NCBI GenBank assembly: GCA_001820685.1
Contig: MHQP01000033.1
Location: 42 to 64,041, forward strand
DNA from: Candidatus Sungbacteria bacterium RIFCSPLOWO2_01_FULL_47_32
Lineage (GTDB): Bacteria; Patescibacteriota; Minisyncoccia; Sungbacterales; GWA2-42-14
Direction of reading: 5' to 3'
Length of the DNA stretch: 64,000 nt
Shown here: positions 2,440 to 35,540 of the stretch, piece after piece
Numbering within the stretch: position 1 is the first letter of the stretch
Layout: each line of letters begins with the position of its first letter
Translations under genes and position numbers: made by a program
The notes under the pieces: generated by a model
Databases searched by the model: none
What the model was told of the DNA's origin: nothing
The model's input: only the letters and a program-made list of their open reading frames with translations

Positions 2440-2458
2440 GCTCGCGAATATTAGCGGT

Positions 2459-4129
2459 TTAGAGCACTTCGTAAATTTCAACAAATGGTCCACTTTTATC
2501 GAGCTTCCATAAAACAGTCCACTGGGTCGGGTTATTCAGATAATCATCGATTCCGCCGCCGCGCAGAGCCTCGTCATGCGTCGGATAGAAACTTTGAACA
2601 AGTTTTATACGATGAAATTTTTCAACCCCCGCACGAATTGTGTCCCCCTTTTCTTTCTTCCAGTATGCGATAAGAATATATTTCGTATTGCTCCCACCAA
2701 GTTCCTCGTATCTGTAATTATAGAAGTCGTAAAAAAGATTCATTCCCGTTCCGTCAAATACATCTTTTTTTGTGACAATGTAATTTATTTTCGCCGACTC
2801 ATTTTGCTTGTTCACTTCTTTGTGATACCGAGCGGCCTCGTAAGAAAGCGGAGCATCGAAACGGTGTTCAAATGAATACACAACTTCTTTCCCGTGAAGA
2901 TTATCGGAAAGCCATTGCTTTGTTTCAAGAAACGTGTTCGCGCGAAGGAGACTAACCCACTTCATGCTTGTGGAAAGACTTGGGATAAGCAGAAGTCCTA
3001 TAAATATTCCGAGGGCAGTCCGCTTACAATTTTTACCCGTAAGCCGATCAACCGCATATGCTATTCCGAATGTCGCCGCAAGTGTTAAAAACGGCAAAAG
3101 CCAGCGGGTCATGCGCGGAGCACTGATGATGCTCACCATGATCAGGTAATTAAACGCAAGCGCGCCGAATACATACCTATGCAGTTTGTCCCTAACGAGC
3201 GATGAAGCAAAAAGGGCAACTGCAAGCCAAAAAACGGCCATTAAAACCGGTTCAATAAAAAAGGTATCGCGAAAAACAAAATAGAAACGTTCAAACTTGC
3301 CTACCGGGTAAAAGCTGACATAATTATTTGCCGCATAGTATCCATAGAGGTTTTCGAGCACCATTCTCCTTACGCCGTTAAAATTCATTAAGTAAAAAAA
3401 CGAAACCGGAAGCGCATAAAGAAGCGTTGCCCGGAGAATCTCTTTTTTGCGAAAGAGTTCTTTATTGAACATGACCCCAAAAACAGGAATGATAAAGGCG
3501 GAAATCCCTACATAATGCACCGATAGCGCGAGGGTAGCGGCAAAAACCGACAGATAGAAAAAGCGAAAGTCTTTTTTGCGTTCAAAAATAAGAATAAAAA
3601 ATAAGGACAGCAAATAGAAAGTGATCATTCCGCTATGCGCTTTGCCCCAATGGGACAAGAAAACAGGAAGCACGCTCACCGCATATGCAGCGGCAGCGGC
3701 GTATGCGCTTGCGGTTTGAGCAAACAGCAAGCGGTATATTTTGTAAATAAGATATACACCGAGCATACCGAATGCGACCGAGAACCAACGCGTAACAATA
3801 ATGAGCTCTCCCATCCCGGATAGAATATAATGCGTTTTTATTGCCTCCGCACTCAAAAGATTTTGGGTGAGTGCTGTATACCCGACCTTGAGCACAACCG
3901 CCGGTATATAAAAGAGTGTCAATAAAATCGGGTGCTGGAGGACATCCGTAGCAAGACTCTTAGCATCGGCAACTTTTAGAATGTAAGAAATGTGGTAATG
4001 CTCATCCCAGATAAAATTTACGCCTGGATAATCAAAGTAAATTCCGTATATGCGCAGCGCGAGTCCGGCAATAAGAATTGCCAGGAGAATCGCGTGTTCT
4101 TTCGCCAGTTGTGATATCCAGTTAGTCAT
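2459..4129 (-). CDS. GT-C fold integral-membrane glycosyltransferase (ArnT/PMT-like), paralog A
   Basis: About 12 predicted TM helices, the loop motif WGKAHSGMITFY, and a ~120-aa soluble C-terminal domain ending SGPFVEIYEVL. It is clearly homologous to 4122..5837 and 16974..18737. Confidence 0.6.
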   Translation of the reverse strand: MTNWISQLAKEHAILLAILIAGLALRIYGIYFDYPGVNFIWDEHYHISYILKVADAKSLATDVLQHPILLTLFYIPAVVLKVGYTALTQNLLSAEAIKTHYILSGMGELIIVTRWFSVAFGMLGVYLIYKIYRLLFAQTASAYAAAAAYAVSVLPVFLSHWGKAHSGMITFYLLSLFFILIFERKKDFRFFYLSVFAATLALSVHYVGISAFIIPVFGVMFNKELFRKKEILRATLLYALPVSFFYLMNFNGVRRMVLENLYGYYAANNYVSFYPVGKFERFYFVFRDTFFIEPVLMAVFWLAVALFASSLVRDKLHRYVFGALAFNYLIMVSIISAPRMTRWLLPFLTLAATFGIAYAVDRLTGKNCKRTALGIFIGLLLIPSLSTSMKWVSLLRANTFLETKQWLSDNLHGKEVVYSFEHRFDAPLSYEAARYHKEVNKQNESAKINYIVTKKDVFDGTGMNLFYDFYNYRYEELGGSNTKYILIAYWKKEKGDTIRAGVEKFHRIKLVQSFYPTHDEALRGGGIDDYLNNPTQWTVLWKLDKSGPFVEIYEVL

Positions 4130-5837
4130 ATGCTAACTGCTGGATTGAACTTTTATCATACGAAATAACTCTGTAAATTTCGACGAACGGACCGGTCCCC
4201 CGCAATTGCATAAGTACCCTCCAATTCAGCGGATTATTCACATATCCTTCTTCAATCTCGCCCAAAGGCAGATCTTTGCGGTCAGTAGGGTAAAATTTTT
4301 GGACCAATTCCAAGGTATGCTCCTTCTTTATTTTTTCAACCTTAGTGACTCCATCATCGCTGTTCCAATACGTCACAACCGCATACTTCGTTGCCGGACC
4401 GGCAAGCTCTTTATGCCGAAGCGCACGATCATAGAAAATATTTATTCCGCTATTTTGAAATTGCTCCTTGTGGCTGATGATGTAGTTAATCTTGCCGGAG
4501 GCCGTAACACCGTTCATATCCCGCTGCCAAAGAGCCGCGTCATAAGAAAGAGGAACATCAATAAGGTTATTGGTAGAATATATAACATCGCCCTTGGCCG
4601 GAACCGTGAGCAGCCACTCTCGCGCCGCAACCATGGTATCGTTATGTATAAGAATCAGCCATTTCGCCGTAAAAATAAGGCTCGGGATAAGAAACAGGGT
4701 TCCGATGGCGCATAAGGCAAATTTTCCGAATCCTTTCTTGAGCAGCCACTCCATAGCTATGGCTGCGGCAAGCGTTGAGGAAAAAAGGATAAAAGGCGTC
4801 TCATATCGCGACATGTATTTTGATGCAACAACCAGTGTCAAAAATAGGTAATTACACGCAAGAAATACGGCAATATACCGCACAAACCTGTCTTTAAAAA
4901 ACTTTTTGATATTAAACACGAGTAATCCCAGAAAAAGACCGACAAACGCCGGCTCTAGGTTGAACGACTCTCTGATCACGTAGTAAAATCTTTCCCACCG
5001 GCCGATAGGATAAATGCTCGTATAGTTATTTGAACCATAATAACTGGTAGGCGAAATAAGAGTTATATAGAGAGAATAGAATACTCCGCGGTAATTTACG
5101 AGGTAAAAAAAAGCAACAATGGCCCCATAGGCCAGTGCCGCTTTGAAGACGGTCCGAAACTTAATGCTCTCCCTGTTCCACACATAACCCCACAAGGGAA
5201 TGAAAAAAGCATTTACTCCGAGATAATGGGCGGAGAACGATAGTGCCGCAGTAATCACTGAACACCAAAACCATAAAAGCTTTTTTTCTTCCTCAAACCG
5301 CAAAATGCAATAGAGAGATAAAACAAGAAAAAATATCAAACCGCTATGCGCCTTTCCCCAATGGGACACAAGAACCGGCATAAGGCTTACCGCGCACACC
5401 AAAGCCGCATACAGCGCCGGCGGCTCCTGTTTAAAAACTATTCGATATATTTTGTAAATAAGAAAAATCGTAGCTGTTCCAAAGAACACGGCATACCATC
5501 GGGCAACCACCACCAAATCTCCCATGCCATTCACGATAAAATACGCTTTTAGCGTATCAATGCCGTATAACCCCCTCACAACGGCAATATATGCAATCTT
5601 TATAAGAACTCCCGGAATATACAAAAAAGAAAGCAGTGCGGGGTATTGCAATACGTTATTGAATACATCGCCCTGCAAAACCCTCAAGAGATACGACATG
5701 TTCCACGTCTCCGCCGTCACAATCTCTACCGCCGGATAGTCAAAATAAATGCCGTAGACGCGAAGAAAGAAACCAAAAACAATAATGGAAACAAGAATGT
5801 AGTGTTCCCGCACCTTCTGTATGAGCGATAAAATCAT
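4122..5837 (-). CDS. GT-C fold integral-membrane glycosyltransferase (ArnT/PMT-like), paralog B
   Basis: Carries WGKAHSGLIFF. Its C-terminal domain KINYIISHKEQF...NNPLNWRVLMQLRGTGPFVEIYRV aligns with paralog A. A start at MILSLIQ (5837) gives the classic 4-nt ATGA overlap with the upstream methyltransferase; the track ORF extends to 5918. Confidence 0.6.
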   Translation of the reverse strand: MILSLIQKVREHYILVSIIVFGFFLRVYGIYFDYPAVEIVTAETWNMSYLLRVLQGDVFNNVLQYPALLSFLYIPGVLIKIAYIAVVRGLYGIDTLKAYFIVNGMGDLVVVARWYAVFFGTATIFLIYKIYRIVFKQEPPALYAALVCAVSLMPVLVSHWGKAHSGLIFFLVLSLYCILRFEEEKKLLWFWCSVITAALSFSAHYLGVNAFFIPLWGYVWNRESIKFRTVFKAALAYGAIVAFFYLVNYRGVFYSLYITLISPTSYYGSNNYTSIYPIGRWERFYYVIRESFNLEPAFVGLFLGLLVFNIKKFFKDRFVRYIAVFLACNYLFLTLVVASKYMSRYETPFILFSSTLAAAIAMEWLLKKGFGKFALCAIGTLFLIPSLIFTAKWLILIHNDTMVAAREWLLTVPAKGDVIYSTNNLIDVPLSYDAALWQRDMNGVTASGKINYIISHKEQFQNSGINIFYDRALRHKELAGPATKYAVVTYWNSDDGVTKVEKIKKEHTLELVQKFYPTDRKDLPLGEIEEGYVNNPLNWRVLMQLRGTGPFVEIYRVISYDKSSIQQLAYD

Positions 5838-6568
5838 TTTTGAGCTGTTATCAATAGTGAGCCGGAAATTTCTTTTAAGAGCGGAACAATCTCTGGCACA
5901 AGAAGCGGAGCAGAACAAAAACGCACGATACTGTCGGGGAGCGCCGGATGCAGGAAGTCGAAATTATCGACACTGACGTTCCTATACCCGACTTCTTCGA
6001 GTGAGCGCGCGAGCCCACAACGGAAAAAAGCTGTTTCGTCGGGAGAGTCTCCCATTGCCTTCTTCAGCCATGGAATATTCTTTTGCAAAAATATCTGCGG
6101 GTTTGCCATATTCGGCTCACTAAAAAGAAGAAGACCGCCATGCGCAAGCTTCCGGTAACACGATTCAAGTGTTTTTTTATGATCAGTGTGATGCAACACA
6201 GAAACTCCGACAATATGCGTAAAGGTTCCGTCAGAAAAATTGTCAAGTTCTTCGGCATCCGCTGTTCTTACTTCAACATTCCGATATTTTTCGACTTTCT
6301 TTTTTGCGACCTTAATTAAGTCCGGCGATATGTCTATCGCCGTTATTGATGCCCCGGTTTGCGCAAGTTTCGCGGTAAACTCCCCCGTTCCGCACCCAAG
6401 CTCAAGCACCCGGCTTCCGGACCAGATGAGACCGTTCTCTATCATAAGATTTATCCGCCTCTCCGTCCGAATCCTCCCAGCCTCGCCGCTTCTTCCCCAC
6501 ACACCTTCCGCGTAATCGGCAATTTTTTTTCCGTGCGTTATTTCATTTATTTTTCGCTGGTCATTCAT
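5834..6568 (-). CDS. Class I SAM-dependent methyltransferase
   Basis: Motif I is VLELGCGTGEFTAKLA, followed by ITAIDISPDLIKVA and LAHGGLLLFSEP. Confidence 0.8.
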   Translation of the reverse strand: MNDQRKINEITHGKKIADYAEGVWGRSGEAGRIRTERRINLMIENGLIWSGSRVLELGCGTGEFTAKLAQTGASITAIDISPDLIKVAKKKVEKYRNVEVRTADAEELDNFSDGTFTHIVGVSVLHHTDHKKTLESCYRKLAHGGLLLFSEPNMANPQIFLQKNIPWLKKAMGDSPDETAFFRCGLARSLEEVGYRNVSVDNFDFLHPALPDSIVRFCSAPLLVPEIVPLLKEISGSLLITAQK

Positions 6569-6573
6569 ACTAT

Positions 6574-7635
6574 TTACACAAGCCTGCTTGCTTCCGCATC
6601 TATCATCTCTTCCATAATATTGTCAAGTTTTTTGGTAATACCCCAGTCCGGATAATCGGTTTTAAGTTTTTTTAAATTTGAAATATAACAGATGTGGTCT
6701 CCTTCGCGATTCTTTTCGTCGTAAACGGAATTTACCGTCTTGCCGGTTATAGATTTTATTTTATCAAAAGTTTCAAGAATAGACATGCTGTTCCCCCTTC
6801 CTCCGCCTAAATTATACACGACTCCTTGTTTCGGATTAGCGATGAATTCTTCGAAGGCCCGAACGACGTCGTATGAATGTATCTGGTCGCGGACTTGTTT
6901 TCCTTTGTAACCGAAGATCGTATACATTCCTCCGCTCACCGCAACCTTAATAAGGTATGACAAAAACCCGTGAAGTTCCACACCGCTATGTTGGGGGCCG
7001 GTAAGACATCCTCCGCGGAAGGAGACGGTATTCATCCCAAAATATTTTCCGTATTCCTGGACCATGACATCCGCGGCAACTTTTGAAGCGCCGAAGATGC
7101 TGTGCTTGGAGCCGTCGATGCTTTGTGTTTCATCGATGCCGTCAAAGTGTTCCGGTTTTGAATATTCCCAGCGCGTTGCCTTCTCTTCTAGAGGCAGATA
7201 ATTTGGGCTATCGCCATACACCTTATTGGTGCTCATGAAAACAAACGGGGCTTCAGGAGAATATGTGCGCGTAGCCTCAAGTAAAATGTGCGTTCCAACC
7301 GCGTTCACTTCAAAATCCAAAAGCGGGTCTTTTTTTGCCCAATCGTGGGATGGCTGGGCCGCGCAATGAATGATGGCTTCGGGCGGGTTCTCTTTGAGGA
7401 GCGAAAATATTTTCATGCGGTCGCGGATGTCGATATCATGATGGACAAAATTCGGAATGCCGTCCTTGAGCCGTTTCAGATTCCACGATGTATCCCCTTT
7501 GTCGCCAAAAAAGAACTTCCGCATATTATTATCAATGCCGTGAATCTCGTACCCTTTATTACCGAAATACAAAGAAGCCTCGGAACCGATAAGGCCCTGG
7601 GATCCCGTAATAAGCATTACTTTTTTCTTTGCCAT
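6574..7635 (-). CDS. NAD-dependent epimerase/dehydratase (extended SDR), CDP-paratose 2-epimerase-like
   Basis: Rossmann motif LITGSQGLIGSE, catalytic region STNKVYGD ... YGASKVAAD (YxxxK), and GYKGKQVRD resembling CDP-paratose 2-epimerase. The start is probably MAKKKV at 7635. Confidence 0.75.
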   Translation of the reverse strand: MAKKKVMLITGSQGLIGSEASLYFGNKGYEIHGIDNNMRKFFFGDKGDTSWNLKRLKDGIPNFVHHDIDIRDRMKIFSLLKENPPEAIIHCAAQPSHDWAKKDPLLDFEVNAVGTHILLEATRTYSPEAPFVFMSTNKVYGDSPNYLPLEEKATRWEYSKPEHFDGIDETQSIDGSKHSIFGASKVAADVMVQEYGKYFGMNTVSFRGGCLTGPQHSGVELHGFLSYLIKVAVSGGMYTIFGYKGKQVRDQIHSYDVVRAFEEFIANPKQGVVYNLGGGRGNSMSILETFDKIKSITGKTVNSVYDEKNREGDHICYISNLKKLKTDYPDWGITKKLDNIMEEMIDAEASRLV

Positions 7636-7749
7636 TGCTTCGCGAATACGCGCAAATGTAGGTACGAATTTCACAAATATTTTTAGCCATTCATGAAATA
7701 AGCGGCTATATTCGAGTAAATTGGTAATACCTATAAAACGAGATAAACG

Positions 7750-9189
7750 CTACATAAGTTTCAGTTTCCGGAAGGCTGCAACGCACATTTTCAGCATGAC
7801 AACGCCGTTATACAAGCGTTTTTTCATTTTTGTCTCGCCGTAAACCCTACTTACATAGTGCACCGGCACATCAATTATCTCAAGATTTATCTTTGAAGCG
7901 CTGAAAAGAAGCTCGTAGTCTCCCCAGCGGTCTTCAGTGCCCCATGTGTGGAAAAACTGCCTCATTCGCTCATAATCGGCCCGCCAGAATACTTTTGTTC
8001 CGCAAAGCGTGTCTTTTATAGGGCGCCCCAACAAATAAGAGAATACAACACTAAAAAACTTATTTCCAATGATGTTAAAGGGGCGCATGGCGTCTTGCTC
8101 CATCGGATAGACCATGCGGGATCCGTTGATAAATTCTCCCCGGCCCTGAATAAGCGCATTGTAAAAATAGGGCAACTCTTCCGGCAAGACCGTAAGATCC
8201 GCATCAAGTATCATCAAAATATCTCCCGAGGCGTGGCTAAACCCCTCCCATACGGCTTTTGCCTTTGAAACTCCGGGGCCGAGAAAAAGTTTTATGTTTT
8301 TATTGGGATACCTCTTTATGCATTTCCGAACCTCGTCCCCCGTCCCATCGTCAGATTTATCGTCAATAAAAATGAGTTCGGTTCCCTTCCCCATTTTCGG
8401 AACACGCATGACCGCCCCTTCGATATTTTCCCGTTCATTCTTACAGGGAATAATGACGCTGACAGAGTATGCGTGAGGATCTTTTGGAGAAGATATTTTT
8501 TTAGCTACCAATACCTGGAGAAAACAGAGGCGATTGATAAGCGGAATTTTTGCAATGAATCGGTTTAAGAACCGGCTTATGACTGGAATGTATTTTGGGA
8601 AAATGACCTCGTGTTCTTGCTTGATTATTTCAAACCCCGCCAGGTGCAGCATGTTTGAAATATCGGAAAGAGAAACCCAGTTCAACGCAGGCTGTTTCAT
8701 TTTTAATCCTAGCTTCTCACCCGCCTTTATCAGCGGATACCACAAAAAATTATGGTTCACGATTATGATACGCGTCCGTTCATTCGAAACCTTATGAAGT
8801 TCGGTAAAATGCTTCTCGACATCCACAATATCGTCAATGAGATTCACAAGGAGCACATAATCGAAGACTTCACTCATCGGTAAAGCTTCAAAATCCGCCC
8901 TCATAAAACGATACTGCGGATATTTTTCTTTGGCGAAATTTGCAAGCTCTTCGCAATAGTCGAGGCCGACTCCGATTTTTGGCTTAACCGCGTCCAAAAA
9001 ATCTCCAAGATCGCTTTTCAAAAGCAGAACTTTTTTCTCCGGCTCAACGAGAAATTTTAAAATATGCCCGATATAGTTGTAATAATACCGGTTCCTTTCT
9101 ATCTGTGCTTTCCGCTTTACCGCGTTTTTCCGGTAGTTCTCGAGAACTTCCCGCTTCTTTTTTGCTAATATGTCTTGTCCTTCATCCAT
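7750..9189 (-). CDS. Two-domain protein: N-terminal class-I-methyltransferase-like domain fused to a C-terminal GT2 (DPM1/GtrB-like) glycosyltransferase
   Basis: The C-terminal half has SVIIPCKNERENI...FIDDKSDDGT...ILDADL (GT2 DxD). The N-terminal half has a methyltransferase-like layout (VLLLKSDLGDFLDA ... FDYVLLVNLIDDIVD ... RIIIVNHN) with a degenerate glycine motif. Confidence 0.7.
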   Translation of the reverse strand: MDEGQDILAKKKREVLENYRKNAVKRKAQIERNRYYYNYIGHILKFLVEPEKKVLLLKSDLGDFLDAVKPKIGVGLDYCEELANFAKEKYPQYRFMRADFEALPMSEVFDYVLLVNLIDDIVDVEKHFTELHKVSNERTRIIIVNHNFLWYPLIKAGEKLGLKMKQPALNWVSLSDISNMLHLAGFEIIKQEHEVIFPKYIPVISRFLNRFIAKIPLINRLCFLQVLVAKKISSPKDPHAYSVSVIIPCKNERENIEGAVMRVPKMGKGTELIFIDDKSDDGTGDEVRKCIKRYPNKNIKLFLGPGVSKAKAVWEGFSHASGDILMILDADLTVLPEELPYFYNALIQGRGEFINGSRMVYPMEQDAMRPFNIIGNKFFSVVFSYLLGRPIKDTLCGTKVFWRADYERMRQFFHTWGTEDRWGDYELLFSASKINLEIIDVPVHYVSRVYGETKMKKRLYNGVVMLKMCVAAFRKLKLM

Positions 9190-9231
9190 ATGTTTATACT
9201 ATAAGGCCGCCGGAAATCCCGGACCCCGCCG

Positions 9232-10251
9232 TTAAATAAGCTTGTCCTTCCACGTACTCGGCGTTTCACCATTCACTATCTCTATCTCAATATGATAATT
9301 AAACGGGCGCGCTCCCCTCTTTTTTATCCACGCTATCGTCAGCTTTACTCCTTCTTCGAATGAAGTCGTCGTCTTATACCCCAAAAGCTTGCGGGCTTTT
9401 CCAGCAGAAGCACCTGCGTTCTTTACCTCATGAGGCCGATCGGGTACATGGATAGGCTCAAGCTTAAAATCCATGAAACGCGCAACGGTGCGCGCGACTT
9501 CATTTATGGTAATAAATTCCTCATCGGGGCCTATATTGATGAATTCTCCGGAGAGTCCCGCCTGAAAGCCCATTTTCTCCAGCGGGTCAATGGCGTCGGT
9601 AATATACGTAAAGCTTCTTTTTTGTTCTCCATCGCCGTAAATGATAGGCTGTTTTCCCTGAAGCATTCTATTGATCATGATGGAAACAACATTCCTATAC
9701 GGGTCATCGTATTTTTGTTTCGGCCCAAAAATGTTGTGAGGAATTGCCTGAACATATTCAATACCGTTTCCCTTGCACATCATCTCGACAAAAAGTTCGG
9801 ATGCAAACTTGGCGATACCGTACGGGTCGACGGGTCGGGCAGGCATGTCCTCCGTAAAAACTCCTCCTTTGCCGCCCTGGTTTCCATACCGGTCCATGCT
9901 TGAAGTAAACACGACGCGTTTCACATTATTTACAACCGCGGCACTGATCGTTGCGACCGTTGAGTTGTATGTGTGCTGGGTAACGATGTTCGGCGAAAAA
10001 ACGCTTAGGCCAACGGGGGCCGCGGCGGCACAGTGATACACAATATCAACACCCTTCAGCAATGTTTTCATTTTTTCAAAATCGCGCGCGTCGTCCTCAT
10101 GGAACTCGACTCCCTCCGGGACATTATCTCGATATCCCCCGAACATGTTATCACAGCCGGAAACACTGTGCCCATTCTTAAGAAGCCGTTTTGCAAGGTG
10201 GCTCCCTAAAAATCCGGCTACTCCCGTTATAAAAACTTTTGATTTTGCCAT
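9232..10251 (-). CDS. NAD-dependent epimerase/dehydratase (extended SDR; UDP-sugar 4-epimerase/decarboxylase-like)
   Basis: KVFITGVAGFLGSHLAKRL Rossmann motif, SSMDRYG, and YGIAKFASE (YxxxK). The start is probably MAKSK at 10251; the track ORF starts at 10305. Confidence 0.75.
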   Translation of the reverse strand: MAKSKVFITGVAGFLGSHLAKRLLKNGHSVSGCDNMFGGYRDNVPEGVEFHEDDARDFEKMKTLLKGVDIVYHCAAAAPVGLSVFSPNIVTQHTYNSTVATISAAVVNNVKRVVFTSSMDRYGNQGGKGGVFTEDMPARPVDPYGIAKFASELFVEMMCKGNGIEYVQAIPHNIFGPKQKYDDPYRNVVSIMINRMLQGKQPIIYGDGEQKRSFTYITDAIDPLEKMGFQAGLSGEFINIGPDEEFITINEVARTVARFMDFKLEPIHVPDRPHEVKNAGASAGKARKLLGYKTTTSFEEGVKLTIAWIKKRGARPFNYHIEIEIVNGETPSTWKDKLI

Positions 10252-10429
10252 TGTATCTATGTATTTAACATTGTGCGCAAAGCAGGCGTAGTTCAGAAGC
10301 CACACAGTGCCGAGCGCGTTCGTGCCCGACCGCTAAGAAGTATTATAGGAGGACATGCCATTTTGTTTGACAGCACAATTACCTTATATACTGTACCAAA
10401 AAACCGAATTTAGTCAAAAAACTCCTGCA

Positions 10430-10458
10430 ATGTAAAAAGCCGCTTTGTTTGCGGCTTT
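10430..10458 (-). terminator. Rho-independent terminator of the amidohydrolase gene
   Basis: On the minus strand AAGCCGCAAACAAAGCGGCTT is followed by TTTTA. The hairpin overlaps the TAA stop. Confidence 0.5.
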
Positions 10459-11212: not shown

Positions 11213-11383
11213 GATAATCCTCCAAAACTAAAAAGGTCTTCCAAGAGTATACCCCTGCCACCCTGTCGCAATCAAGGCTCATTGATTTTTAATAACTTAA
11301 CGCAGACACATGTGAAATCTCAAAGACCAGAAACTTTCGGGTGAAGGAGTAAAATCGAAAAACCCTAAAAATCAAGCGGCAGA

Positions 11384-12493: not shown

Positions 12494-12602
12494 ACCTGCA
12501 TCATATCTTTTTTATTCGGTTTTTAGAAGTGCGTGTACAAACAAGCTTCTTTGTGGTACTGATGGCATATTCTTACTCTGTTCTTTGATATGAGGTGTAA
12601 CG

Positions 12603-13784
12603 ATGAGAAGCTGGAACTTTGATACGCTTCTTGTTTCGGGCGGATACGACCCGACGGAACACCGCTGGCACAGGTCGGAACCGATTTATCCGGATGCCGC
12701 AGTTGTGCAACCTGACTGCAGAACTGCCACGGCCCGATTTGCCGGAACCGAGGAAGGGCTTGTTTATGCGAGGTTCGGAACGGATAATGATATTCTTGTT
12801 GAGAAACGTGTAGCTCTTCTTGAGGGGGCTGAAGCATCAAAATGCTTCGGCTCGGGACTTGCCGCAATCAACTGCCTGCTTTACGCGCTTGCTGAAGACG
12901 GAGACCACATCGCAGTACAGGAAAAAATGTACGGTGGAACAATTGCCGCGATTACAAAGCTCCTGATGCGCGCCGGGGTACGCGTTACATTCATTAAGGA
13001 CACGAACGACCCCGACGAATGGAAGCGTGCATGCAAGAAAAAGAGAATGAAGCTTCTATTCGCCGAAATTCTTTCGAACCCGACACTCGAAGTGCTTGAT
13101 GTCGAGACTATTTCGGAAATTGCAAAGACTCACAACGCCGCCCTCGTGATTGACGCGACCTTCTCAACGCCGGTTCTTTTCCGCCCGCTTGACTGGGGGG
13201 CTGATTACAGCATCCACTCAACGACAAAATTCATGAATATCGGAGGAACGAACACAGGCGGAGTTTTGTCGGGACCGAAAGACGGCATAAAAAAAGTCGT
13301 GGGAATTTCAAACCTTTGGGGAGCCCCGCTTTCCGCGTTTGACGCATGGCTTACAATCAAAGGAATGCCTTTTTTGAAAGATCGGGTACTCCGCCAGTCG
13401 AAGTCCGCTTTCGAGCTTGCGTCCTTTCTTGCAAAAAACCCGCGGGTAAAGAAAATATTTTATCCGAAGCTCATGAGCTCGCCAGATTATTTCCGCGCCA
13501 AAAAATACCTGCCGGAAGGCTGTGGAGCCGTATTCGCGCTTGAGCTTGAGGGAACTAAGGCGGATGCCGCCCGCTTCATCGAGTCGCTCAAGCTCTGGTC
13601 GCATGCGGTAAATCTTGGCGACATTCACTCGCTTGCGACATGCCCCGCCCTGACAACACACTCAACCATTCCGCAGGAGATGCGGGAGCGGGCCGGTATT
13701 ACAGACACGTTCATCCGTTTTTCAACAGGCCTTGAGCATATTGAAGACCTAAAGGATGACATCGACCAGGCGCTGAAAAAATAG
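12603..13784 (+). CDS. PLP-dependent Cys/Met-metabolism enzyme (O-acetylhomoserine sulfhydrylase / methionine gamma-lyase family)
   Basis: Fold-type I trans-sulfuration pattern with the PLP-lysine in YSIHSTTKFMNIGG and C-terminal FSTGLEHIEDL. It is the only plus-strand gene in the first 27 kb. Confidence 0.75.
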   Translation: MRSWNFDTLLVSGGYDPTEHRWHRSEPIYPDAAVVQPDCRTATARFAGTEEGLVYARFGTDNDILVEKRVALLEGAEASKCFGSGLAAINCLLYALAEDGDHIAVQEKMYGGTIAAITKLLMRAGVRVTFIKDTNDPDEWKRACKKKRMKLLFAEILSNPTLEVLDVETISEIAKTHNAALVIDATFSTPVLFRPLDWGADYSIHSTTKFMNIGGTNTGGVLSGPKDGIKKVVGISNLWGAPLSAFDAWLTIKGMPFLKDRVLRQSKSAFELASFLAKNPRVKKIFYPKLMSSPDYFRAKKYLPEGCGAVFALELEGTKADAARFIESLKLWSHAVNLGDIHSLATCPALTTHSTIPQEMRERAGITDTFIRFSTGLEHIEDLKDDIDQALKK

Positions 13785-13797
13785 ACAATAAAAAAAT

Positions 13798-13825
13798 AAT
13801 CCCGTTTTAAACGGGATTTTTTCTA
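13798..13825 (+). terminator. Rho-independent terminator
   Basis: AATCCCGTTT-TAA-AACGGGATT followed by TTTTTC. Confidence 0.6.
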
Positions 13826-13863
13826 ACCCCAGCCGTCACAGGTGTGGACGAGGAATAAAAAAC

Positions 13864-13892
13864 TTGACAAAAGTGCATTCTAATTATATAAT
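13864..13892 (+). promoter_or_regulatory. Perfect sigma70-consensus promoter (TTGACA-17 bp-TATAAT)
   Basis: TTGACA at 13864-13869, an exact 17-bp spacer, and TATAAT at 13887-13892. Located 44 bp upstream of the small ORF 13936..14181. Confidence 0.55.
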
Positions 13893-13935
13893 CACCATAG
13901 CACACCTTTGATATTCAAGGGCAAAGAACTTACCT

Positions 13936-14181
13936 ATGCCAACCCCTAACGGATGGGTATCAGGAGACGTTATCATTTTTTTTAAAAAGAACATATCCGA
14001 AGAACGCATTAAAACCATTATTTCTGAATTTTGGCTTCAGATAGTTTCGTCTCCGGAGAGCCCCGGCGGAATGTACTGGCTTGAAGTTCCTCCCGGCACC
14101 GAGCAAGAATGGATTTCACGGCTTAACAATTTAGCGGAAGTTGACCAGGCATACCCGAACAAATACCTTGAAGAACAATAA
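13936..14181 (+). CDS. Small hypothetical protein (81 aa)
   Basis: ORF bracketed by a consensus promoter and a bidirectional terminator. No recognisable family. Confidence 0.4.
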   Translation: MPTPNGWVSGDVIIFFKKNISEERIKTIISEFWLQIVSSPESPGGMYWLEVPPGTEQEWISRLNNLAEVDQAYPNKYLEEQ

Positions 14182-14183
14182 AT

Positions 14184-14218
14184 AAAAAAACCGCAGAATG
14201 TCTGTGGTGTTTTTGTTT
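14184..14218. terminator. Bidirectional terminator between convergent genes
   Basis: A-run, hairpin CCGCAGA-ATG-TCTGTGG (one GU pair), then T-run TGTTTTTGTTT. Confidence 0.4.
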
Positions 14219-14219
14219 A

Positions 14220-15584
14220 TTATAGACGGTCCAGGATTCGCTGAAAGTTTCTGGCAACATCAAAAAGCGTGTTGAGAGAAAATAACGAAAAAGAAATAAG
14301 AAGCGCCCGATCGAAAAAGTTCCGCTCTCTCATAAGCAACGTAAACGCATACCCGGCAAATAGCGCCATAAAGGGGTAAGCAGAATACCGATATCGCGTC
14401 TCAACAATAAGGAACATGAACGAGACCGGCATCAAAATGAGCATGACGGTAAAAAACAATACCCTCTGCCGTGTTTGCCCTGTTGTACGCGTGATCGCGC
14501 CTAAAACACCGGCACCCCCAAGCAGAAAAAGAACAAACGCATAGACCGCCGAAGAAACTACCACGGCAAGCTGCTGAAAACGCATCCCCTCCAGATACGG
14601 CCACCAGCCAGTTGGACGAGCAATGCTAAAATATATCGAAACGCGATAGAACGTAATCTTAAGAAAGCGAAGCGGGTCTGCTTTTATGAACCCAAGCGCC
14701 ATGTCTATTTCGGTCTTGTTTGCCGAGAATCGTTCGGCAAACCGAAGAGGCGTCGTATACTCATAGCGCGAGTCGTCAATTTCACCCGTCGCATTCGGAT
14801 TGTTGCCGTTCAAAAAAGCATCCCCAACCGCAAGATTTGTCGGAACAAATTTATGAAACACGCGATAGTTCCTTACAGCCCAGGGCGCCATCAGAATGGC
14901 GCAGCAAAAAAGAAAAACGATAGCATGCACAAAGCGCTTTCGCACCCAAAAGAGCGCTGAGGCCGGCAGAAGCAAAATGCCGAGGGGAGACCGGGTAAGA
15001 TAGACTGCCCCGAATAATACTCCCGCAAGTCCAGCACCTGATGCTGAAGGCATATCATCATATCGGAAAAACCACCAGACAAAAAGAAGCATCAGAAAAA
15101 GAGCAAAATTTTCGACAAGAAGCATGGAGCTTGCAAGTATCAGGTCAGGAGAAAACGCTATAAGCGCCGCCCCCGTCAAGCCCATTGCCGGATGCCACAT
15201 ATCTTTAAATAGCCGGCGCGAAATAAGAAATACAAGCAAAGCCGAAAGCGCATGAAAAAGCGCCTGAAAAATCCAAACCGGTTCATAGCGATGGCCGAAG
15301 ACATAAAAGAAACCGACGAGCAAAAATTCATATCCCGGTCCCGACTTTATCATCGAGCGATCCGCATTCAACGGAATATCATTCGTATCCATTCGGTATC
15401 CGTTCCCCGATATGATATTTTGGGCGATCACGTTATAAGCTTCGGCGTCTACCATAGGCTCGATGCGATAGTAAAAAGAATAGAAAAGCGAAACCAAAAA
15501 GGCTCCCCCAATAACCCCCCAGAGAAGACGGCGGGAGTAACGCTCTAAGAAATCGAGGAAGTATGATGTATGCATCATGTTCAT
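14220..15584 (-). CDS. Polytopic membrane protein, probable GT-C glycosyltransferase (PMT_2/ArnT-like)
   Basis: 10+ TM helices and a central loop FRYDDMPSASGAGLAGVLFGAVYLTRSPLG similar to the PMT_2/GT39-83 family. Confidence 0.5.
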   Translation of the reverse strand: MNMMHTSYFLDFLERYSRRLLWGVIGGAFLVSLFYSFYYRIEPMVDAEAYNVIAQNIISGNGYRMDTNDIPLNADRSMIKSGPGYEFLLVGFFYVFGHRYEPVWIFQALFHALSALLVFLISRRLFKDMWHPAMGLTGAALIAFSPDLILASSMLLVENFALFLMLLFVWWFFRYDDMPSASGAGLAGVLFGAVYLTRSPLGILLLPASALFWVRKRFVHAIVFLFCCAILMAPWAVRNYRVFHKFVPTNLAVGDAFLNGNNPNATGEIDDSRYEYTTPLRFAERFSANKTEIDMALGFIKADPLRFLKITFYRVSIYFSIARPTGWWPYLEGMRFQQLAVVVSSAVYAFVLFLLGGAGVLGAITRTTGQTRQRVLFFTVMLILMPVSFMFLIVETRYRYSAYPFMALFAGYAFTLLMRERNFFDRALLISFSLFSLNTLFDVARNFQRILDRL

Positions 15585-15701
15585 ATATTTTTATTCATTT
15601 ATCCATCTTTCATTTCGTAGGATAGTATATCCCAAAAAGACCCTAAACCGATATGTTTTCCTCGTAAAAAATCCGCGTTATCTGAATGATACGAGATGCT
15701 G

Positions 15702-16271
15702 TTATTTTTTTGCGACGGCAAACAAGTTGAAGCCCGCTTCAAAATACGCTTGTGTTATATGCTCGGTCTTAAAGCCGGCAGAAACCAGCATGCGTGAGAG
15801 GTCACGCTTCCAGAAGTAGCGTTTGTGGTCACGTATCTCCCCTTCTTCAATGACGTGAAGCTTGTAGGCAAGAACTTCCAGCACCGGACGCGCCGCCCAT
15901 GTCGGAACGGTAATGATAAGAGTTCCGCCGGGCCTTAAGACACGGTATATTTCTTTCAAAATATCCTCAGGGTACTGAAGGTGTTCAAGCACGGCAGTCA
16001 GAGTCACGACATCAACGGACGACGTTTCTTGATCAAGTGTTTTTTCAAGAAGGCCTTTCTTAAGCGTAATATTCCCTTCCTCCCCTTCTGGAACATCCAT
16101 ATCAATGCCGATGCCCTTACTGATAAGAGGCAAGAGCGACCGAAGAAGACGAGCCTTAAAACCGCATCCGACGTCAAGCACGACCGCACCCCTCGAAATG
16201 TACGACCGAACCCGCCGCACTCTCAGAAAACGCAATAAAGGGTCAAGAAGCCTATCCATGGTTTTAGCCAA
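15702..16271 (-). CDS. Class I SAM-dependent methyltransferase
   Basis: VVLDVGCGFKARLL (motif I), DVVTLTAVLEHL, and LRPGGTLIITVP. Confidence 0.8.
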   Translation of the reverse strand: MAKTMDRLLDPLLRFLRVRRVRSYISRGAVVLDVGCGFKARLLRSLLPLISKGIGIDMDVPEGEEGNITLKKGLLEKTLDQETSSVDVVTLTAVLEHLQYPEDILKEIYRVLRPGGTLIITVPTWAARPVLEVLAYKLHVIEEGEIRDHKRYFWKRDLSRMLVSAGFKTEHITQAYFEAGFNLFAVAKK

Positions 16272-16959
16272 ACACGTTAAACCGAATGACGTGCCACACA
16301 GCCGCTATTCCGTCTTTCCAGTTGATTTTTTTTCCTTCTTCATATGTCCTGCCCGAATACGATATTCCAACTTCGTACACCCTCCATTTTCCTTTCGCAA
16401 CTCTAGCGGTCAGCTCAACCTCAATGCCGAACCGGTCAGACACGAGTTTCGGAAGAAGGAACTCTACGACTTCCCGGCGAAAAACTTTATAGCCGGTCTC
16501 AATATCCGATAAGTTCAGATTCGTAAAACAATTTGAAAGAAATGTAATGAGAATATTTGCAAGATAGTGGTGAAAGTTGAGAACCCTACGCGGCTGGTTC
16601 GAAATGAGCCGGGAGCCATAAACAACATCCGCCTGATTTCCAAGTATCGGCTTGAGTAAAAAGGGATAGTCCGCCGGGTCGTATTCGAAGTCGGCATCCT
16701 GAATAAGAACAATGTCCCCTGTCGTCACTTTCAGTCCGGTCCTAATGGCTGCTCCTTTGCCGCGGTTTTGCGGATGCTTGACGATGCGAATACCGGAAAT
16801 CCCCTCAAGCATCGAAAGACTTCTGTCCTTAGAGCCATCATCAACCGCAATAATCTCCTTTTCCATGCCTAACGAATCAGCCTTTTTCACGCGGTCAACC
16901 AGTTTAGCGATGGTTTTTTCTTCGTTATAGACAGGTATAACGATGGAAAGTTTTTTCAT
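16264..16959 (-). CDS. GT2 polyprenol-phosphate glycosyltransferase (DPM1-like, soluble form)
   Basis: KLSIVIPVYNEEKTI...IIAVDDGSKDRS...LIQDADFEYDP. There is no C-terminal TM segment. It has an 8-nt overlap with the upstream methyltransferase. Confidence 0.8.
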   Translation of the reverse strand: MKKLSIVIPVYNEEKTIAKLVDRVKKADSLGMEKEIIAVDDGSKDRSLSMLEGISGIRIVKHPQNRGKGAAIRTGLKVTTGDIVLIQDADFEYDPADYPFLLKPILGNQADVVYGSRLISNQPRRVLNFHHYLANILITFLSNCFTNLNLSDIETGYKVFRREVVEFLLPKLVSDRFGIEVELTARVAKGKWRVYEVGISYSGRTYEEGKKINWKDGIAAVWHVIRFNVFG

Positions 16960-16973
16960 GTTCCTCTATCGGC

Positions 16974-18737
16974 TTACCGATTTTTAAATGTGTATATCTC
17001 AACATACGGACCCGAGAATTCTCTGCCGGAAAGAGCATCTGCAGGATACATAGGGTCATTCAGAATATCTGCGGCATCCTTCCCATCTCGCCTTGGCGCA
17101 AAGCCGACAACACGCACCTTATCCAAACCGGCGTAGCGCGCTTCGAGTTCCCTCTTTTGCCGCGCATTCCAATATGAATAAAAAAGATATCCAGCGGGGA
17201 TTTTTTTGAATTCGCCGTCGATATCTTGAAACCGACTTATATCATAAACAAAATAACCGGGCTCGTACAGACGGCTATCCGGCGAAATGCCGAGAACGGC
17301 TCCTGCGCGGGTATCGAAACGAACAGGATTGTTTTCCTTGAGTGCGGCGGCACTTTCCTTGTTCATTGGTACATACACCGTATAATCGTCAAGAATAATG
17401 ACGGAACCAAGTGGAACATTTTTTTGAATCCATTCGACGGCTTGTGTGCGCGTGTCAAAACTTGACATAAGCGCACCGTAGCGATACACCGGATAAACCG
17501 AATACCAGAAAAATCCGAACGTAAAAAAGACAAGAAGAAGATACCTCACGAACGGAGTCCGCTGCTTCGAAAAACCAAGAAAAAACGCGTAGGACGAACC
17601 GAGAAGAAGCGGAGGAACAACCGGCAGAATAAACCGCGGCTCTATTCTTGAAAATCCGAATATGAGTCCGGCGAGATAGAGAAGCGGCATACCAAGCAAA
17701 AGCGAAAATTCAAAAAATTTCCCGTTGTTTGCGCGCCACCACCCAATGAGCCCTGCGGCGCCGAGAAGAAAAAGCGGACTTTCTGACCAAAAATACCTGC
17801 TTACATTCAAAATATTTGTCCACAGGTGTATTCCTCCTCCAACAGGTTTCGTCGTAATGTGCTGAAACGAGAACCCAAAAATACTTCCGACCCCGGCAAC
17901 GAGCCATCCGAATTGACGCTGAAATGCATATGGATTAGCGAGAGAGAAAAAAACTATAATTGCGCAAAGCAAAACAAGACTCACCATGAAGGATTTATCA
18001 AAAAACGCACCCTCTTTTGTGTTCATAACAAGGTTCCGCATGCGCCTTCCCCTCCACCCATGCATGTGAGCCCAAAAAAACCAGGGCAGAAGAACAAGAA
18101 TGATATATCCCATGCCATATCCGAACCCGATAGCAAAAACTGCCAGCACGTACCAAAGAAGACGGCGGGTTTCCTTCATTTTCACGATGGAGTATATCCC
18201 GGCAACAACAAAAAAGGCCGTTGGTCCCCAAAAACGCCCGGTCTGAGTTTCGTGTACATGGAGAAAATCGAATACAAGAAATACCGCCGAGAGCAAAGCG
18301 ACATGCTTTGAAAAAACATTTCTTCCGAGAAGATACAGGATGTAGACCGTTGCAGTTCCAAAAAGAGCAGACAGGATACGCGCGATAACAAGAAACTCTT
18401 CGCGATGAAGCAGAACATATTGCTGAAACTCATGTACTCCCGAAAACCAGCCAAGAAGAATTCCGGCAACCCCCGCAACACCAAAGAAGGGAGCGAGTAT
18501 ATACGAAAAAAGCGGAGGAATGTATAAAAACGAGTTCCCCCACAAAGATCCTGACTGTAATATTTTAAAGCCGCCAACAACCGAAACAAGCTCATCCCCA
18601 TAAAAACTTTGAGGAATTCCAAAAGAAACCGCACCCAGTCTCAGTATGAACGCAATAAACAAAAGAGCTATAAGAATAGTCCGAAAATATATTTGTTCGC
18701 GAGCAAACGCTCTGCGAAAACTGAATTGGTCATCCAT
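16974..18737 (-). CDS. GT-C fold integral-membrane glycosyltransferase, paralog C
   Basis: Many TM helices and the FDFLHVHETQTGRFWGP loop. The C-terminal soluble domain ...ILNDPMYPADALSGREFSGPYVEIYTFKNR is homologous to the C-termini of paralogs A and B. Confidence 0.55.
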   Translation of the reverse strand: MDDQFSFRRAFAREQIYFRTILIALLFIAFILRLGAVSFGIPQSFYGDELVSVVGGFKILQSGSLWGNSFLYIPPLFSYILAPFFGVAGVAGILLGWFSGVHEFQQYVLLHREEFLVIARILSALFGTATVYILYLLGRNVFSKHVALLSAVFLVFDFLHVHETQTGRFWGPTAFFVVAGIYSIVKMKETRRLLWYVLAVFAIGFGYGMGYIILVLLPWFFWAHMHGWRGRRMRNLVMNTKEGAFFDKSFMVSLVLLCAIIVFFSLANPYAFQRQFGWLVAGVGSIFGFSFQHITTKPVGGGIHLWTNILNVSRYFWSESPLFLLGAAGLIGWWRANNGKFFEFSLLLGMPLLYLAGLIFGFSRIEPRFILPVVPPLLLGSSYAFFLGFSKQRTPFVRYLLLVFFTFGFFWYSVYPVYRYGALMSSFDTRTQAVEWIQKNVPLGSVIILDDYTVYVPMNKESAAALKENNPVRFDTRAGAVLGISPDSRLYEPGYFVYDISRFQDIDGEFKKIPAGYLFYSYWNARQKRELEARYAGLDKVRVVGFAPRRDGKDAADILNDPMYPADALSGREFSGPYVEIYTFKNR

Positions 18738-35386: not shown

Positions 35387-35540
35387 ATTTATCTGAATAT
35401 CGGGTAATTTTTGATATTTTTAGCGCATAAAAATTTAAGTTTTTTAAGTTCCGGTAAAAGAACCCGGCACTCTAAAATTGATTTTTAGGCCTTGCAGGCA
35501 TATACTTGTAATTGTTTTCACATGTATCCCAAGAATACGC

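What the first reader, a model, noticed from the sequence alone, without database searches (positions are those of the whole stretch)
2459..18737. Three GT-C paralogs share a conserved ~110-aa C-terminal soluble domain ending in SGPFVEIY
The C-termini align clearly. Paralog A is KINYIVTKKDVF...NNPTQWTVLWKLDKSGPFVEIYEVL. Paralog B is KINYIISHKEQF...NNPLNWRVLMQLRGTGPFVEIYRV. Paralog C is ...NDPMYPADALSGREFSGPYVEIYTFKNR. A and B are tandem duplicates with a 4-8 nt overlap. I do not recognise this C-terminal module as a named domain. It may be a substrate-recognition or lectin-like periplasmic domain specific to this transferase family.
Basis: seen in the sequence. Interest (0 to 1): 0.6.

Follow-up and report, generated by a model that had tools for sequence, protein, structure and literature searches.

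The report
Unnamed outer cap domain on glycosyltransferases
Three membrane sugar-transferase genes in this Candidatus Sungbacteria (CPR) fragment share a real, about 160-residue, so far unnamed C-terminal domain that always travels with this enzyme family; it is a lineage-specific version of the outside-facing end domain many such enzymes carry, and of modest interest.

Summary
Paralogs A (2459..4129), B (4122..5837) and C (16974..18737), all on the minus strand, are GT-C/PMT_2 membrane glycosyltransferases with a homologous C-terminal soluble domain ending in GP[FY]VEIY. The domain is about 160 aa, not 110. The similarity is not confined to the end motif: A–C z=7.2 with the motif removed.

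No Pfam, NCBIfam or PDB sequence match covers it. An exhaustive profile search of 1.84 billion representatives found 66 true clusters. In every one the domain sits at the extreme C-terminus of a 545–590 aa GT-C protein or a fragment of one. Nearly all named members are Patescibacteria/CPR.

AlphaFold models are confident (pLDDT about 93, pTM 0.92). They show an α/β domain with no significant Foldseek match; the best hits are Rossmann-like methyltransferases at E about 0.1. Charge distribution puts it outside the cell.

The parts
2459..4129 (-). Paralog A, 556-aa GT-C (PMT_2) glycosyltransferase; 100% identical to a Candidatus Sungbacteria RIFCSPLOWO2_02_FULL_47 protein
   Evidence: PF13231, 34.1 bits against a 26.1 cutoff, residues 109-240; P0002; GT-C fold
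2462..2944 (-). A C-terminal extracytoplasmic alpha/beta domain, residues 396-556
   Evidence: pLDDT 92.8; topology
2471..2494 (-). Terminal motif SGPFVEIY of A (residues 546-553). G547 and Y553 are invariant and P548 is present in 92% of a 39-sequence family-wide alignment. The motif forms the last beta strand (E549-555).
4001..4006 (-). A Asp42-Glu43, the GT-C first-external-loop DE motif. hhalign aligns it to the PDETRY motif of E. coli ArnT.
4122..5837 (-). Paralog B, 571-aa GT-C (PMT_2). It overlaps A's start by 8 nt and the upstream methyltransferase by 4 nt.
4164..4646 (-). B C-terminal domain, residues 398-558. It is followed by a 13-aa tail (4125..4163) found only in B and P0039.
5712..5714 (-). 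Ala codon (GCG) in B at the position of the conserved catalytic Asp (TAETW in B, WDEHY in A)
16974..18737 (-). Paralog C, 587-aa GT-C (PMT/PMT_2), representing a second, divergent clade of the same family
16977..17465 (-). C C-terminal domain, residues 425-587, ending SGPYVEIYTFKNR
16264..16959 (-). 231-aa GT2 immediately downstream of C. Its best NCBIfam matches are polyprenyl/dolichyl-phosphate sugar synthases (AglJ, PpgS, ArnC, PgfS), all below the curated cutoffs. It is the likely maker of the lipid-linked donor.
5834..6568 (-). SAM-dependent methyltransferase immediately upstream of B. The same methyltransferase-then-GT-C order is seen on other CPR contigs.
1756..2493 (-). SAM-dependent methyltransferase immediately downstream of A

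Best explanation
The conserved C-terminal stretch is the integral extracytoplasmic 'cap' domain of a small, apparently CPR/Patescibacteria-restricted family of PMT_2-type GT-C glycosyltransferases.

Each enzyme has a polytopic membrane core carrying the GT-C catalytic apparatus: the DE motif in the first external loop, an HWGKxH loop and conserved arginines on the outer face. The last TM helix leads directly into a ~160-aa alpha/beta domain. That domain packs rigidly on the outer face of the core and ends in the beta strand GPxVEIY.

The enzymes most likely take a sugar from a polyprenyl-phosphate-sugar made by a neighbouring GT2. They would then transfer it outside the membrane onto a surface glycan or protein built by the surrounding glycan island, which is rich in GT4, GT2, methyltransferase and epimerase genes.

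The domain occupies the position that the periplasmic domain holds in ArnT. It is inferred to stabilise the external loops and to form part of the acceptor-binding cavity. Its invariant residues (T, W, Y, G, P, Y) would be the structural skeleton, and its clade-specific polar residues would tune acceptor choice.

Shown:
- homology of the three domains;
- a fixed architecture across the family;
- the lack of any named family;
- a confident alpha/beta model;
- an outside location by charge bias;
- the glycan-cluster context.

Inferred:
- the donor type;
- the acceptor-side role;
- the relationship to the ArnT-type domain.
For: Homology over the whole domain.

Family and architecture:
- The three proteins are homologous over their full length (B vs C 22-23% over about 580 aa, E=1.7e-14 / 3e-15).
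- An exhaustive hmmsearch of 1.84e9 representatives gave 69 hits, of which 66 are true. In complete proteins the domain starts at about residue 390-425 and ends 0-7 residues from the C-terminus. B and its near-identical relative P0039 are the exception, with a 13-aa tail.
- Short hits are fragments that still carry the preceding TM helix or start at non-Met residues.
- The domain is at least as conserved as the membrane core: 44% vs 41% mean identity to A.

Structure:
- Full-length AF2 model: pLDDT 92.6, pTM 0.92. This implies a fixed domain orientation.
- Domain-only model: pLDDT 92.8 with the same secondary-structure elements.
- The full-length model matches GT-C structures (ALG12, ArnT 5f15, Pmt4, PglB) at E=3e-7 to 2e-5.

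Topology: K/R-rich short loops alternate with K/R-poor ones. This places the C-terminal domain on the same side as the HWGK loop and the long 249-293 loop.

Catalytic motif: DE is conserved in A, C and 35 of 35 A/B-clade homologues.

Context:
- The adjacent GT2 resembles polyprenyl-P-sugar synthases.
- The same cluster type (methyltransferase or methyltransferase-GT2 fusion upstream, ~230-aa GT2, GtrA-like gene in L002) occurs on five other contigs; L002 is an NCBI Patescibacteria MAG, the other four are unnamed metagenome contigs.
- This fits the multi-component transmembrane glycosylation scheme reviewed in PMC8035078.
Against: - No direct evidence for substrate contact. Model coordinates could not be inspected, so the position of conserved residues relative to the active site is unknown.
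- The relationship to the ArnT periplasmic domain has no measurable support. hhalign against the E. coli ArnT C-terminus gave probability below 1%. hhalign against the window's own ArnT-like paralog tail gave 0.1%.
- The isolated domain's Foldseek PDB search does not list ArnT among its 50 best matches. The best matches are Rossmann-like methyltransferases (E=0.095, TM 0.38-0.41).
- The residues invariant across the whole family are hydrophobic or turn residues. That fits a purely structural role as well as a binding role.
- No GtrA-type flippase was found among the window ORFs tested.
Confidence: 0.6

Rival explanations
1. One reading: an autonomous lectin-like or carbohydrate-binding module appended to the transferase to hold the acceptor glycan, comparable to the PMT MIR domain or the EmbC C-terminal CBM.
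For: - The domain is extracytoplasmic.
- It sits in a glycan-biosynthesis island.
- The A/B clade keeps several polar residues (N440, D468, R473, H506, D529, N532) that could bind sugar.
- Larger GT-C enzymes are known to carry carbohydrate-binding domains (PMC8035078).
Against: - The fold is alpha/beta, not a beta-trefoil or beta-sandwich.
- There is no Pfam hit to MIR or any CBM family.
- There is no significant structural match to any lectin or CBM.
- The domain is never seen outside this one architecture.
- pTM 0.92 argues for rigid packing on the core, not a tethered module.
- The polar residues are not conserved in the C-like clade.
Confidence: 0.15
2. The domain is mainly an oligomerisation interface. 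A and B, whose genes overlap by 8 nt (consistent with translational coupling), would form a heterodimer like Pmt1-Pmt2. B would be a catalytically impaired partner and the C-terminal domains would mediate pairing.
For: - A and B overlap by 8 nt.
- B alone has Ala in place of the catalytic Asp, and this is reproduced in the independent near-identical sequence P0039.
- A second contig (L006) also carries two family members, separated by one methyltransferase gene.
- PMT-family GT-Cs can be obligate dimers; Pmt1-Pmt2 and Pmt4 dimers appear among the structural matches.
Against: - Four of the five other contigs examined hold a single family member within the stretch fetched (6-10 kb flanks).
- Both L006 copies keep the DE motif.
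- Nothing ties dimerisation to the C-terminal domain specifically.
- No multimer prediction was possible.
Confidence: 0.1
3. The domain is a degenerate Rossmann-like (class I methyltransferase-derived) enzyme or pseudo-enzyme domain.
For: - The top Foldseek matches in both the PDB and BFVD searches are SAM-dependent methyltransferases.
- The entry motif 'N-x-p-x-G-S-x-I-i-x-D' loosely recalls methyltransferase motif I.
- The gene clusters are full of methyltransferases.
Against: - The matches are not significant (E>=0.095, probability <=0.44, TM <=0.41).
- No Pfam methyltransferase model hits any of 25 members at E<=1.
- No glycine-rich SAM loop follows the first strand.
- The domain lies outside the cell, where SAM is not expected (own knowledge).
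Confidence: 0.04

Closest known systems
[quoted passage not shown]
   Same: - GT-C fold membrane core. 5f15 is the second-best structural match of the full-length model (E=6.8e-6).
- The DE motif after TM1 aligns to ArnT PDETRY.
- The overall size is similar (541-578 aa vs 556-587 aa).
- In both, a soluble domain directly follows the last TM helix on the outer side of the membrane and ends the protein. ArnT consists of 13 TM helices plus a periplasmic domain (PMC7801869).
- E. coli ArnT also ends in a hydrophobic strand a few residues from the C-terminus (...RLVLIQYRPK).
   Different: - There is no detectable sequence or profile similarity between the C-terminal domains.
- The domain here is about 160 aa, against roughly 110-120 aa for the soluble C-terminal region of E. 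coli ArnT.
- The isolated domain does not retrieve ArnT among its 50 best Foldseek matches.
- The membrane cores are also very distant: the family profile finds only Pmt1 in the PDB at E=0.0017 and does not find ArnT.
- A true ArnT homologue lies elsewhere in the window (35478..37016; 5ezm E=3.6e-21) and lacks this domain.
[quoted passage not shown]
   Same: - PF13231 membrane core above the gathering score.
- Pairing with a small GT2 resembling C55-P-sugar synthases.
- A GtrA-like gene next to a family member in L002.
- Location in cell-surface glycan clusters.
   Different: - None of those characterised enzymes is known to me to carry this C-terminal domain (own knowledge, not tested).
- The family here is confined to CPR genomes among named members.
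- It is consistently preceded by methyltransferase or methyltransferase-GT2 genes.
Eukaryotic/actinobacterial protein O-mannosyltransferases (PMT, GT39) with a MIR domain
   Same: - The best PDB sequence match of the family profile is yeast Pmt1, over the membrane core only (E=0.0017).
- The DE motif in loop 1 is shared.
- NCBI names several members 'glycosyltransferase family 39 protein'.
   Different: - The MIR domain is a beta-trefoil inserted in loop 5, not a C-terminal alpha/beta domain.
- There is no MIR Pfam hit.
- There is no PMT_4TMC hit.

Membership tests
GT-C glycosyltransferase superfamily, PMT_2 (PF13231) type | Pfam PMT_2/PMT model matched above the gathering score in the membrane core | tested here: met
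   A 34.1, B 32.1 and C 31.8 bits against a 26.1 cutoff. C also matches PF02366 at 35.4 bits against 22.7.
GT-C glycosyltransferase superfamily, PMT_2 (PF13231) type | GT-C fold of the polytopic membrane domain | tested here: met
   The model of A (pLDDT 92.6, pTM 0.92) matches ALG12, ArnT, Pmt4, PglB, STT3, AftD and DPY19 at E=3e-7 to 5e-4, probability 1.00.
GT-C glycosyltransferase superfamily, PMT_2 (PF13231) type | Acidic catalytic motif (Asp, here Asp-Glu) in the first extracytoplasmic loop | tested here: met
   Met in A (D42-E43), C (D48-E49) and 35 of 35 A/B-clade homologues. NOT met in B, which has Ala-Glu.
ArnT-type C-terminal periplasmic domain | Soluble domain directly after the last TM helix, on the extracytoplasmic side, ending the protein | tested here: met
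   Domain boundaries. The positive-inside pattern places it opposite the K/R-rich loops.
ArnT-type C-terminal periplasmic domain | Sequence or profile similarity to the ArnT periplasmic domain | tested here: not met
   hhalign of the family alignments against the E. coli ArnT C-terminus gave probability 0.2-0.3%. Against the C-terminus of the window's ArnT-like paralog it gave 0.1%. Both comparisons used single-sequence templates only.
ArnT-type C-terminal periplasmic domain | Superimposable three-dimensional fold | tested here: inconclusive
PMT MIR domain (beta-trefoil) | MIR repeats / beta-trefoil inserted in the large luminal loop | tested here: not met
   No MIR Pfam hit. The domain is C-terminal and alpha/beta.
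Carbohydrate-binding modules of GT-C enzymes (EmbC/AftD-type CBMs) | Beta-sandwich/jelly-roll CBM fold or a match to a CBM family | tested here: not met
   No CBM Pfam hit. Five strands are interleaved with at least seven helices. No CBM appears among the Foldseek matches.
STT3/PglB/AglB C-terminal domain | WWDYG-type motif in the C-terminal soluble domain | tested here: not met
   No WWD motif in the alignments of the domain. No STT3 Pfam hit.
Class I SAM-dependent methyltransferase fold | Significant fold match plus a glycine-rich SAM-binding motif I | tested here: not met
   The best matches are methyltransferases but not significant (E>=0.095, TM<=0.41). No methyltransferase Pfam hit. No GxGxG after strand 1.

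The most novel reading that the evidence does not exclude
The domain is a new fold family that arose within CPR bacteria and sets the acceptor specificity of a CPR-specific surface-glycan decoration system using methylated sugars. In this genome the Asp-less paralog B would act as a non-catalytic partner of A through these domains. This would be a bacterial analogue of heteromeric PMT complexes built with a different accessory domain.
Probability: 0.12. Interest if true: 0.55.

Novelty: new variant of a known kind. Interest (0 to 1): 0.3.

Why it matters
CPR/Patescibacteria are ultra-small, largely uncultured bacteria, many thought to live as episymbionts, so their cell surface is likely to mediate contact with other cells. 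Almost nothing is known about how that surface is glycosylated.

This window carries five GT-C genes in 64 kb. Three belong to a family with an unannotated, strongly conserved outer domain. Defining that family gives annotators a handle on a recurrent CPR glycan-cluster component currently labelled only 'GT39 family' or 'hypothetical'. The available handles are the 160-aa domain, the T..W...Y...GPxVEIY signature and the synteny with methyltransferase and GT2 genes.

It does not change what is understood about GT-C enzymes in general. A soluble outer domain after the last TM helix is a known design.

Tried and rejected
- Word-indexed homologue searches with the domain alone (one fragment) and with a 39-sequence domain alignment (three hits) were nearly empty. 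Only the full-length profile and the exhaustive representative search were productive.
- Genome-collection scans were poor. The alignment was too diverse. The single protein gave no confirmed locus. The 6-sequence alignment gave one Patescibacteria locus. The taxonomic range therefore rests on few named sequences.
- Profile comparisons to the E. coli ArnT C-terminus, to the window's ArnT-like paralog and to the C-terminus of a neighbouring Pfam-less TM family found nothing, or only the first helix-strand unit.
- P0037, a distant PMT_2 protein, shares only that entry unit (hhalign probability 77% over 29 columns).
- The BFVD search was uninformative.
- The ArnT structure paper (PMC4963604) is not held, so its description of the periplasmic domain could not be cited.
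- Three long repetitive proteins in the representative search (P0084, P0092, P0105) were rejected as low-complexity false positives, since they show many ~20-residue stretches.
- The weak Polysacc_lyase Pfam hit (E=0.025-0.12, 12.6-14.9 bits, well below the 29.9-bit cutoff, one member only) was rejected as chance.
Full report
**Source and setting.** Paralog A is 100% identical to a protein of Candidatus Sungbacteria bacterium RIFCSPLOWO2_02_FULL_47, so the window comes from a CPR/Patescibacteria genome. From about 363 to 27435 nearly every minus-strand gene tested encodes glycan-biosynthesis functions. These include GT4 and GT2 transferases, four or more SAM methyltransferases, a methyltransferase-GT2 fusion, two NAD-dependent epimerase/dehydratases and a nucleotidyltransferase. 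The finding's three genes lie inside this island.

**Checking the observation.**
- The three ORFs and the quoted peptides are exactly as described.
- All three hit the PMT_2/PMT Pfam models above the gathering score, but only in the membrane core at residues about 108-260.
- B should be read from the ATG at 5837 (571 aa). This matches the N-termini of homologues and of the 98.8%-identical database sequence P0039.
- A's ATG overlaps B's stop by 8 nt, and B's ATG overlaps the upstream methyltransferase by 4 nt.
- The conserved soluble region begins right after the last hydrophobic helix and runs to the C-terminus. That is A 396-556, B 398-558 plus a 13-aa tail, and C 425-587.
- A vs B is 41% identical (E=7e-44). 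A vs C is 23% over 162 aa (E=7e-7).
- With the terminal motif deleted, A-C and B-C local scores still beat all 2000 shuffles (z=7.2 and 6.8).
- A profile of the domain finds only these three copies in all six frames of the window.

**Is it a named domain?** No.
- Pfam gives nothing for the C-terminal part of A, B or C, nor for any of 25 family members scanned individually at E<=1. The exception is scattered single-member hits at E of 0.02 or weaker, none above a family's cutoff.
- NCBIfam has no model for the three proteins.
- A profile of the domain finds nothing among all PDB chain sequences at E<=10.
- For calibration, the periplasmic domain of E. coli ArnT is not covered by any Pfam model in this library either.

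**Extent of the family.**
- The exhaustive HMMER search of 1.84 billion 50%-identity representatives, using the three-sequence domain profile, returned 69 proteins at E<=1e-3.
- Three of these are long repetitive proteins matched by many 20-residue stretches. They were discarded.
- In the other 66 the domain is either at residues about 390-425 to the end of a 532-597 aa protein, or in a shorter fragment.
- The match ends 0-7 residues from the C-terminus, nearly always with GP-x-[VI]-[ED]-[IV]-Y. B/P0039, with its 13-aa tail, is the exception.
- The short sequences still carry the preceding TM helix or begin with non-Met residues, so they are truncated gene calls and not stand-alone domains.
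- BLAST shows two clades: an A/B-like clade and a C-like clade whose best relative is P0057 at 44%.
- B and C are homologous over their whole length (22-23% over about 580 aa, E=1.7e-14 / 3e-15). The domain has therefore been inherited together with the membrane core and not shuffled.
- Named members are Candidatus Sungbacteria, 'Patescibacteria group' or 'Parcubacteria group'. One partial sequence is labelled Planctomycetes (P0034).
- The domain is slightly better conserved than the core: 44% vs 41% mean identity to A.
- Across a 39-sequence alignment spanning both clades, the invariant or near-invariant positions are T399, W406, Y484, G547, P548 and Y553 (A numbering), with A403, F514, L510, L540 and I552 above 80%. 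This is the profile of a structural skeleton.
- Polar residues such as N440, D468, R473, H506, D529 and N532 are conserved only within the A/B clade.

**Structure.**
- With a 39-sequence alignment, AlphaFold2 gives a full-length model of A with mean pLDDT 92.6 and pTM 0.92.
- The domain alone gives pLDDT 92.8 with the same elements. Helix 399-410 is followed by strand 416-419, two to three helices, strand 465-467, strand 482-489, helix 492-503, strand 508-514, short helices and the terminal strand 549-555 formed by the motif.
- A pTM of 0.92 for a two-part protein implies that the relative position of domain and core is predicted with confidence. I read this as rigid packing (inference).
- The full-length model matches solved GT-C enzymes: ALG12 at 3e-7, ArnT 5f15 at 7e-6, Pmt4, PglB, STT3, AglB, AftD and DPY19.
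- The isolated domain has no PDB match at E<1e-3. The 12 best are all Rossmann-like methyltransferases (E=0.095-0.3, TM 0.31-0.41, probability <=0.44), and the BFVD search gives the same picture.
- I take this to mean a generic three-layer alpha/beta architecture, not methyltransferase ancestry. There is no glycine-rich loop, no Pfam methyltransferase hit, and the domain is on the wrong side of the membrane.

**Topology.**
- Across 37 family members, K/R-rich short loops (0.26-0.37 K+R per residue) occur at the N-terminus, 135-140, 183-190, 221-229, 312-316 and 362-371.
- They alternate with K/R-poor segments (0-0.14): 28-68 with the DE motif, 159-166 with HWGKxH, 203-208, 249-293 and 333-342.
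- The last K/R-rich loop immediately precedes the last TM helix. The C-terminal domain therefore lies on the outer face together with the conserved catalytic-side loops.
- CPR cells are not known to have an outer membrane (own knowledge), so 'extracytoplasmic' is a better term than 'periplasmic'.

**Function and mechanism (inferred).**
- The proteins have the GT-C hallmarks, including the DE motif that hhalign aligns with PDETRY of E. coli ArnT.
- C is immediately followed by a 231-aa GT2. Its best NCBIfam matches are polyprenyl/dolichyl-phosphate sugar synthases (AglJ 2.9e-31, PpgS, ArnC, PgfS, Dol-P-hexose transferase), all below the equivalog cutoffs.
- On five other contigs (one an NCBI Patescibacteria MAG, the rest unnamed), family members sit in the same kind of cluster. 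A methyltransferase or a ~470-aa methyltransferase-GT2 fusion lies directly upstream, a ~230-aa GT2 is nearby, a GtrA-like gene occurs in L002, and radical-SAM and carbamoyltransferase genes are present. The window has the same fusion gene at 7750..9189.
- This is the layout of the multi-component transmembrane glycosylation systems described for Gram-positive cell-wall polymers: a GT-A makes C55-P-sugar, a flippase moves it, and a PMT_2 GT-C transfers it outside (PMC8035078).
- The most likely reading is that A and C, and perhaps B, transfer a sugar from a lipid-phosphate carrier to a surface glycan or protein. The C-terminal domain would cap the outer face of the core in the position of the ArnT periplasmic domain.
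- Whether the domain contacts the acceptor, only braces the external loops, or does both cannot be decided without the coordinates.

**Relation to known domains.**
- Positionally and architecturally the nearest analogue is the ArnT periplasmic domain. ArnT consists of 13 TM helices plus a periplasmic domain (PMC7801869), and its sequence also ends in a hydrophobic strand.
- No sequence-profile link was found.
- The first helix-strand unit (consensus ..T.x.A..WI..N.p.GS.I) recurs in a distant PMT_2 protein (P0037: hhalign probability 77%, E=2e-5 over 29 columns). It recurs weakly in a neighbouring Pfam-less TM family. This hints at a wider, fast-evolving class of GT-C C-terminal domains, but the evidence is thin.
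- MIR, CBM and STT3-type domains are excluded by fold, position and motifs.

**Verdict.** The 'lectin-like module' reading is not supported. This is a lineage-specific form of a known design (a GT-C core plus a C-terminal outer domain) in a poorly studied phylum. I rate it as a new variant of a known kind, of modest interest.

Noticed in passing
window 5712..5714 (minus strand), within paralog B 4122..5837: B has Ala (GCG) where the GT-C catalytic Asp of the DE motif sits (TAETW in B, WDEHY in A). The 98.8%-identical database sequence P0039 has the same change. All 35 other A/B-clade homologues keep DE. B keeps HWGKAH and the full C-terminal domain, so it may be a catalytically impaired partner of A.
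   Followed up: partly
window 35478..37016 (+): A fifth GT-C gene, a genuine ArnT homologue (5ezm E=3.6e-21; PMT 75.6 bits). It lacks the family domain but has a ~95-aa soluble tail that also ends in an SGP-plus-strand motif (…RYSGPSLTLVSFVP). hhalign finds no link to the family domain.
   Followed up: partly
window 14220..15584 (-): A fourth GT-C (PMT_2, 454 aa) with no soluble C-terminal domain at all, lying between the A/B pair and paralog C.
   Followed up: partly
L002 12052..13818; L005 10176..11963; L006 11594..13339; L007 7689..9455: A ~580-595-aa family with no Pfam hit lies next to family members on four other contigs. It has 9-10 hydrophobic helices, and three of the four carry a DDE motif after TM1 (e.g. 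'DDEVHYL'; L006y has 'ADKMFYM'). Its ~200-aa soluble C-terminus ends in …IYR/IYK. The members are 31-40% identical to each other, and the family is absent from this window. It is possibly another unannotated GT-C family.
   Followed up: partly
window 5834..6568 and 7750..9189; L002, L005, L006, L007: A SAM methyltransferase, or a ~470-aa methyltransferase-GT2 fusion, lies immediately upstream of the GT-C gene, often with a 4-nt overlap. This holds in this window and on the other contigs, suggesting the transferred or accepted sugar is methylated.
   Followed up: partly
L006 6001..7653 and 8399..10126: Another contig carries two family members separated by a single methyltransferase gene. Both have an intact DE motif, so paired paralogs recur but the Asp loss is specific to B.
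   Followed up: partly
window 19027..20658 (-): A 543-aa ORF directly upstream of paralog C with no Pfam or NCBIfam hit and one hydrophobic segment. It is followed upstream by a 455-aa double nitroreductase-like protein (20646..22013).
   Followed up: no
window 37099..40893 (-) and 42788..46447 (-): Two very large proteins: 1264 aa with beta-helix/NosD/LTD hits, and 1219 aa with a PG_binding_1 domain. They lie near the ArnT-like gene and are plausible surface proteins and candidate glycosylation targets.
   Followed up: no
P0001 (236-aa database fragment): It is 96-97% identical to A's domain over the part that aligns (about 72% of the domain, ending near its residue 181). It then continues with an unrelated 55-residue tail, probably a frameshifted or chimeric assembly variant.
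   Followed up: no
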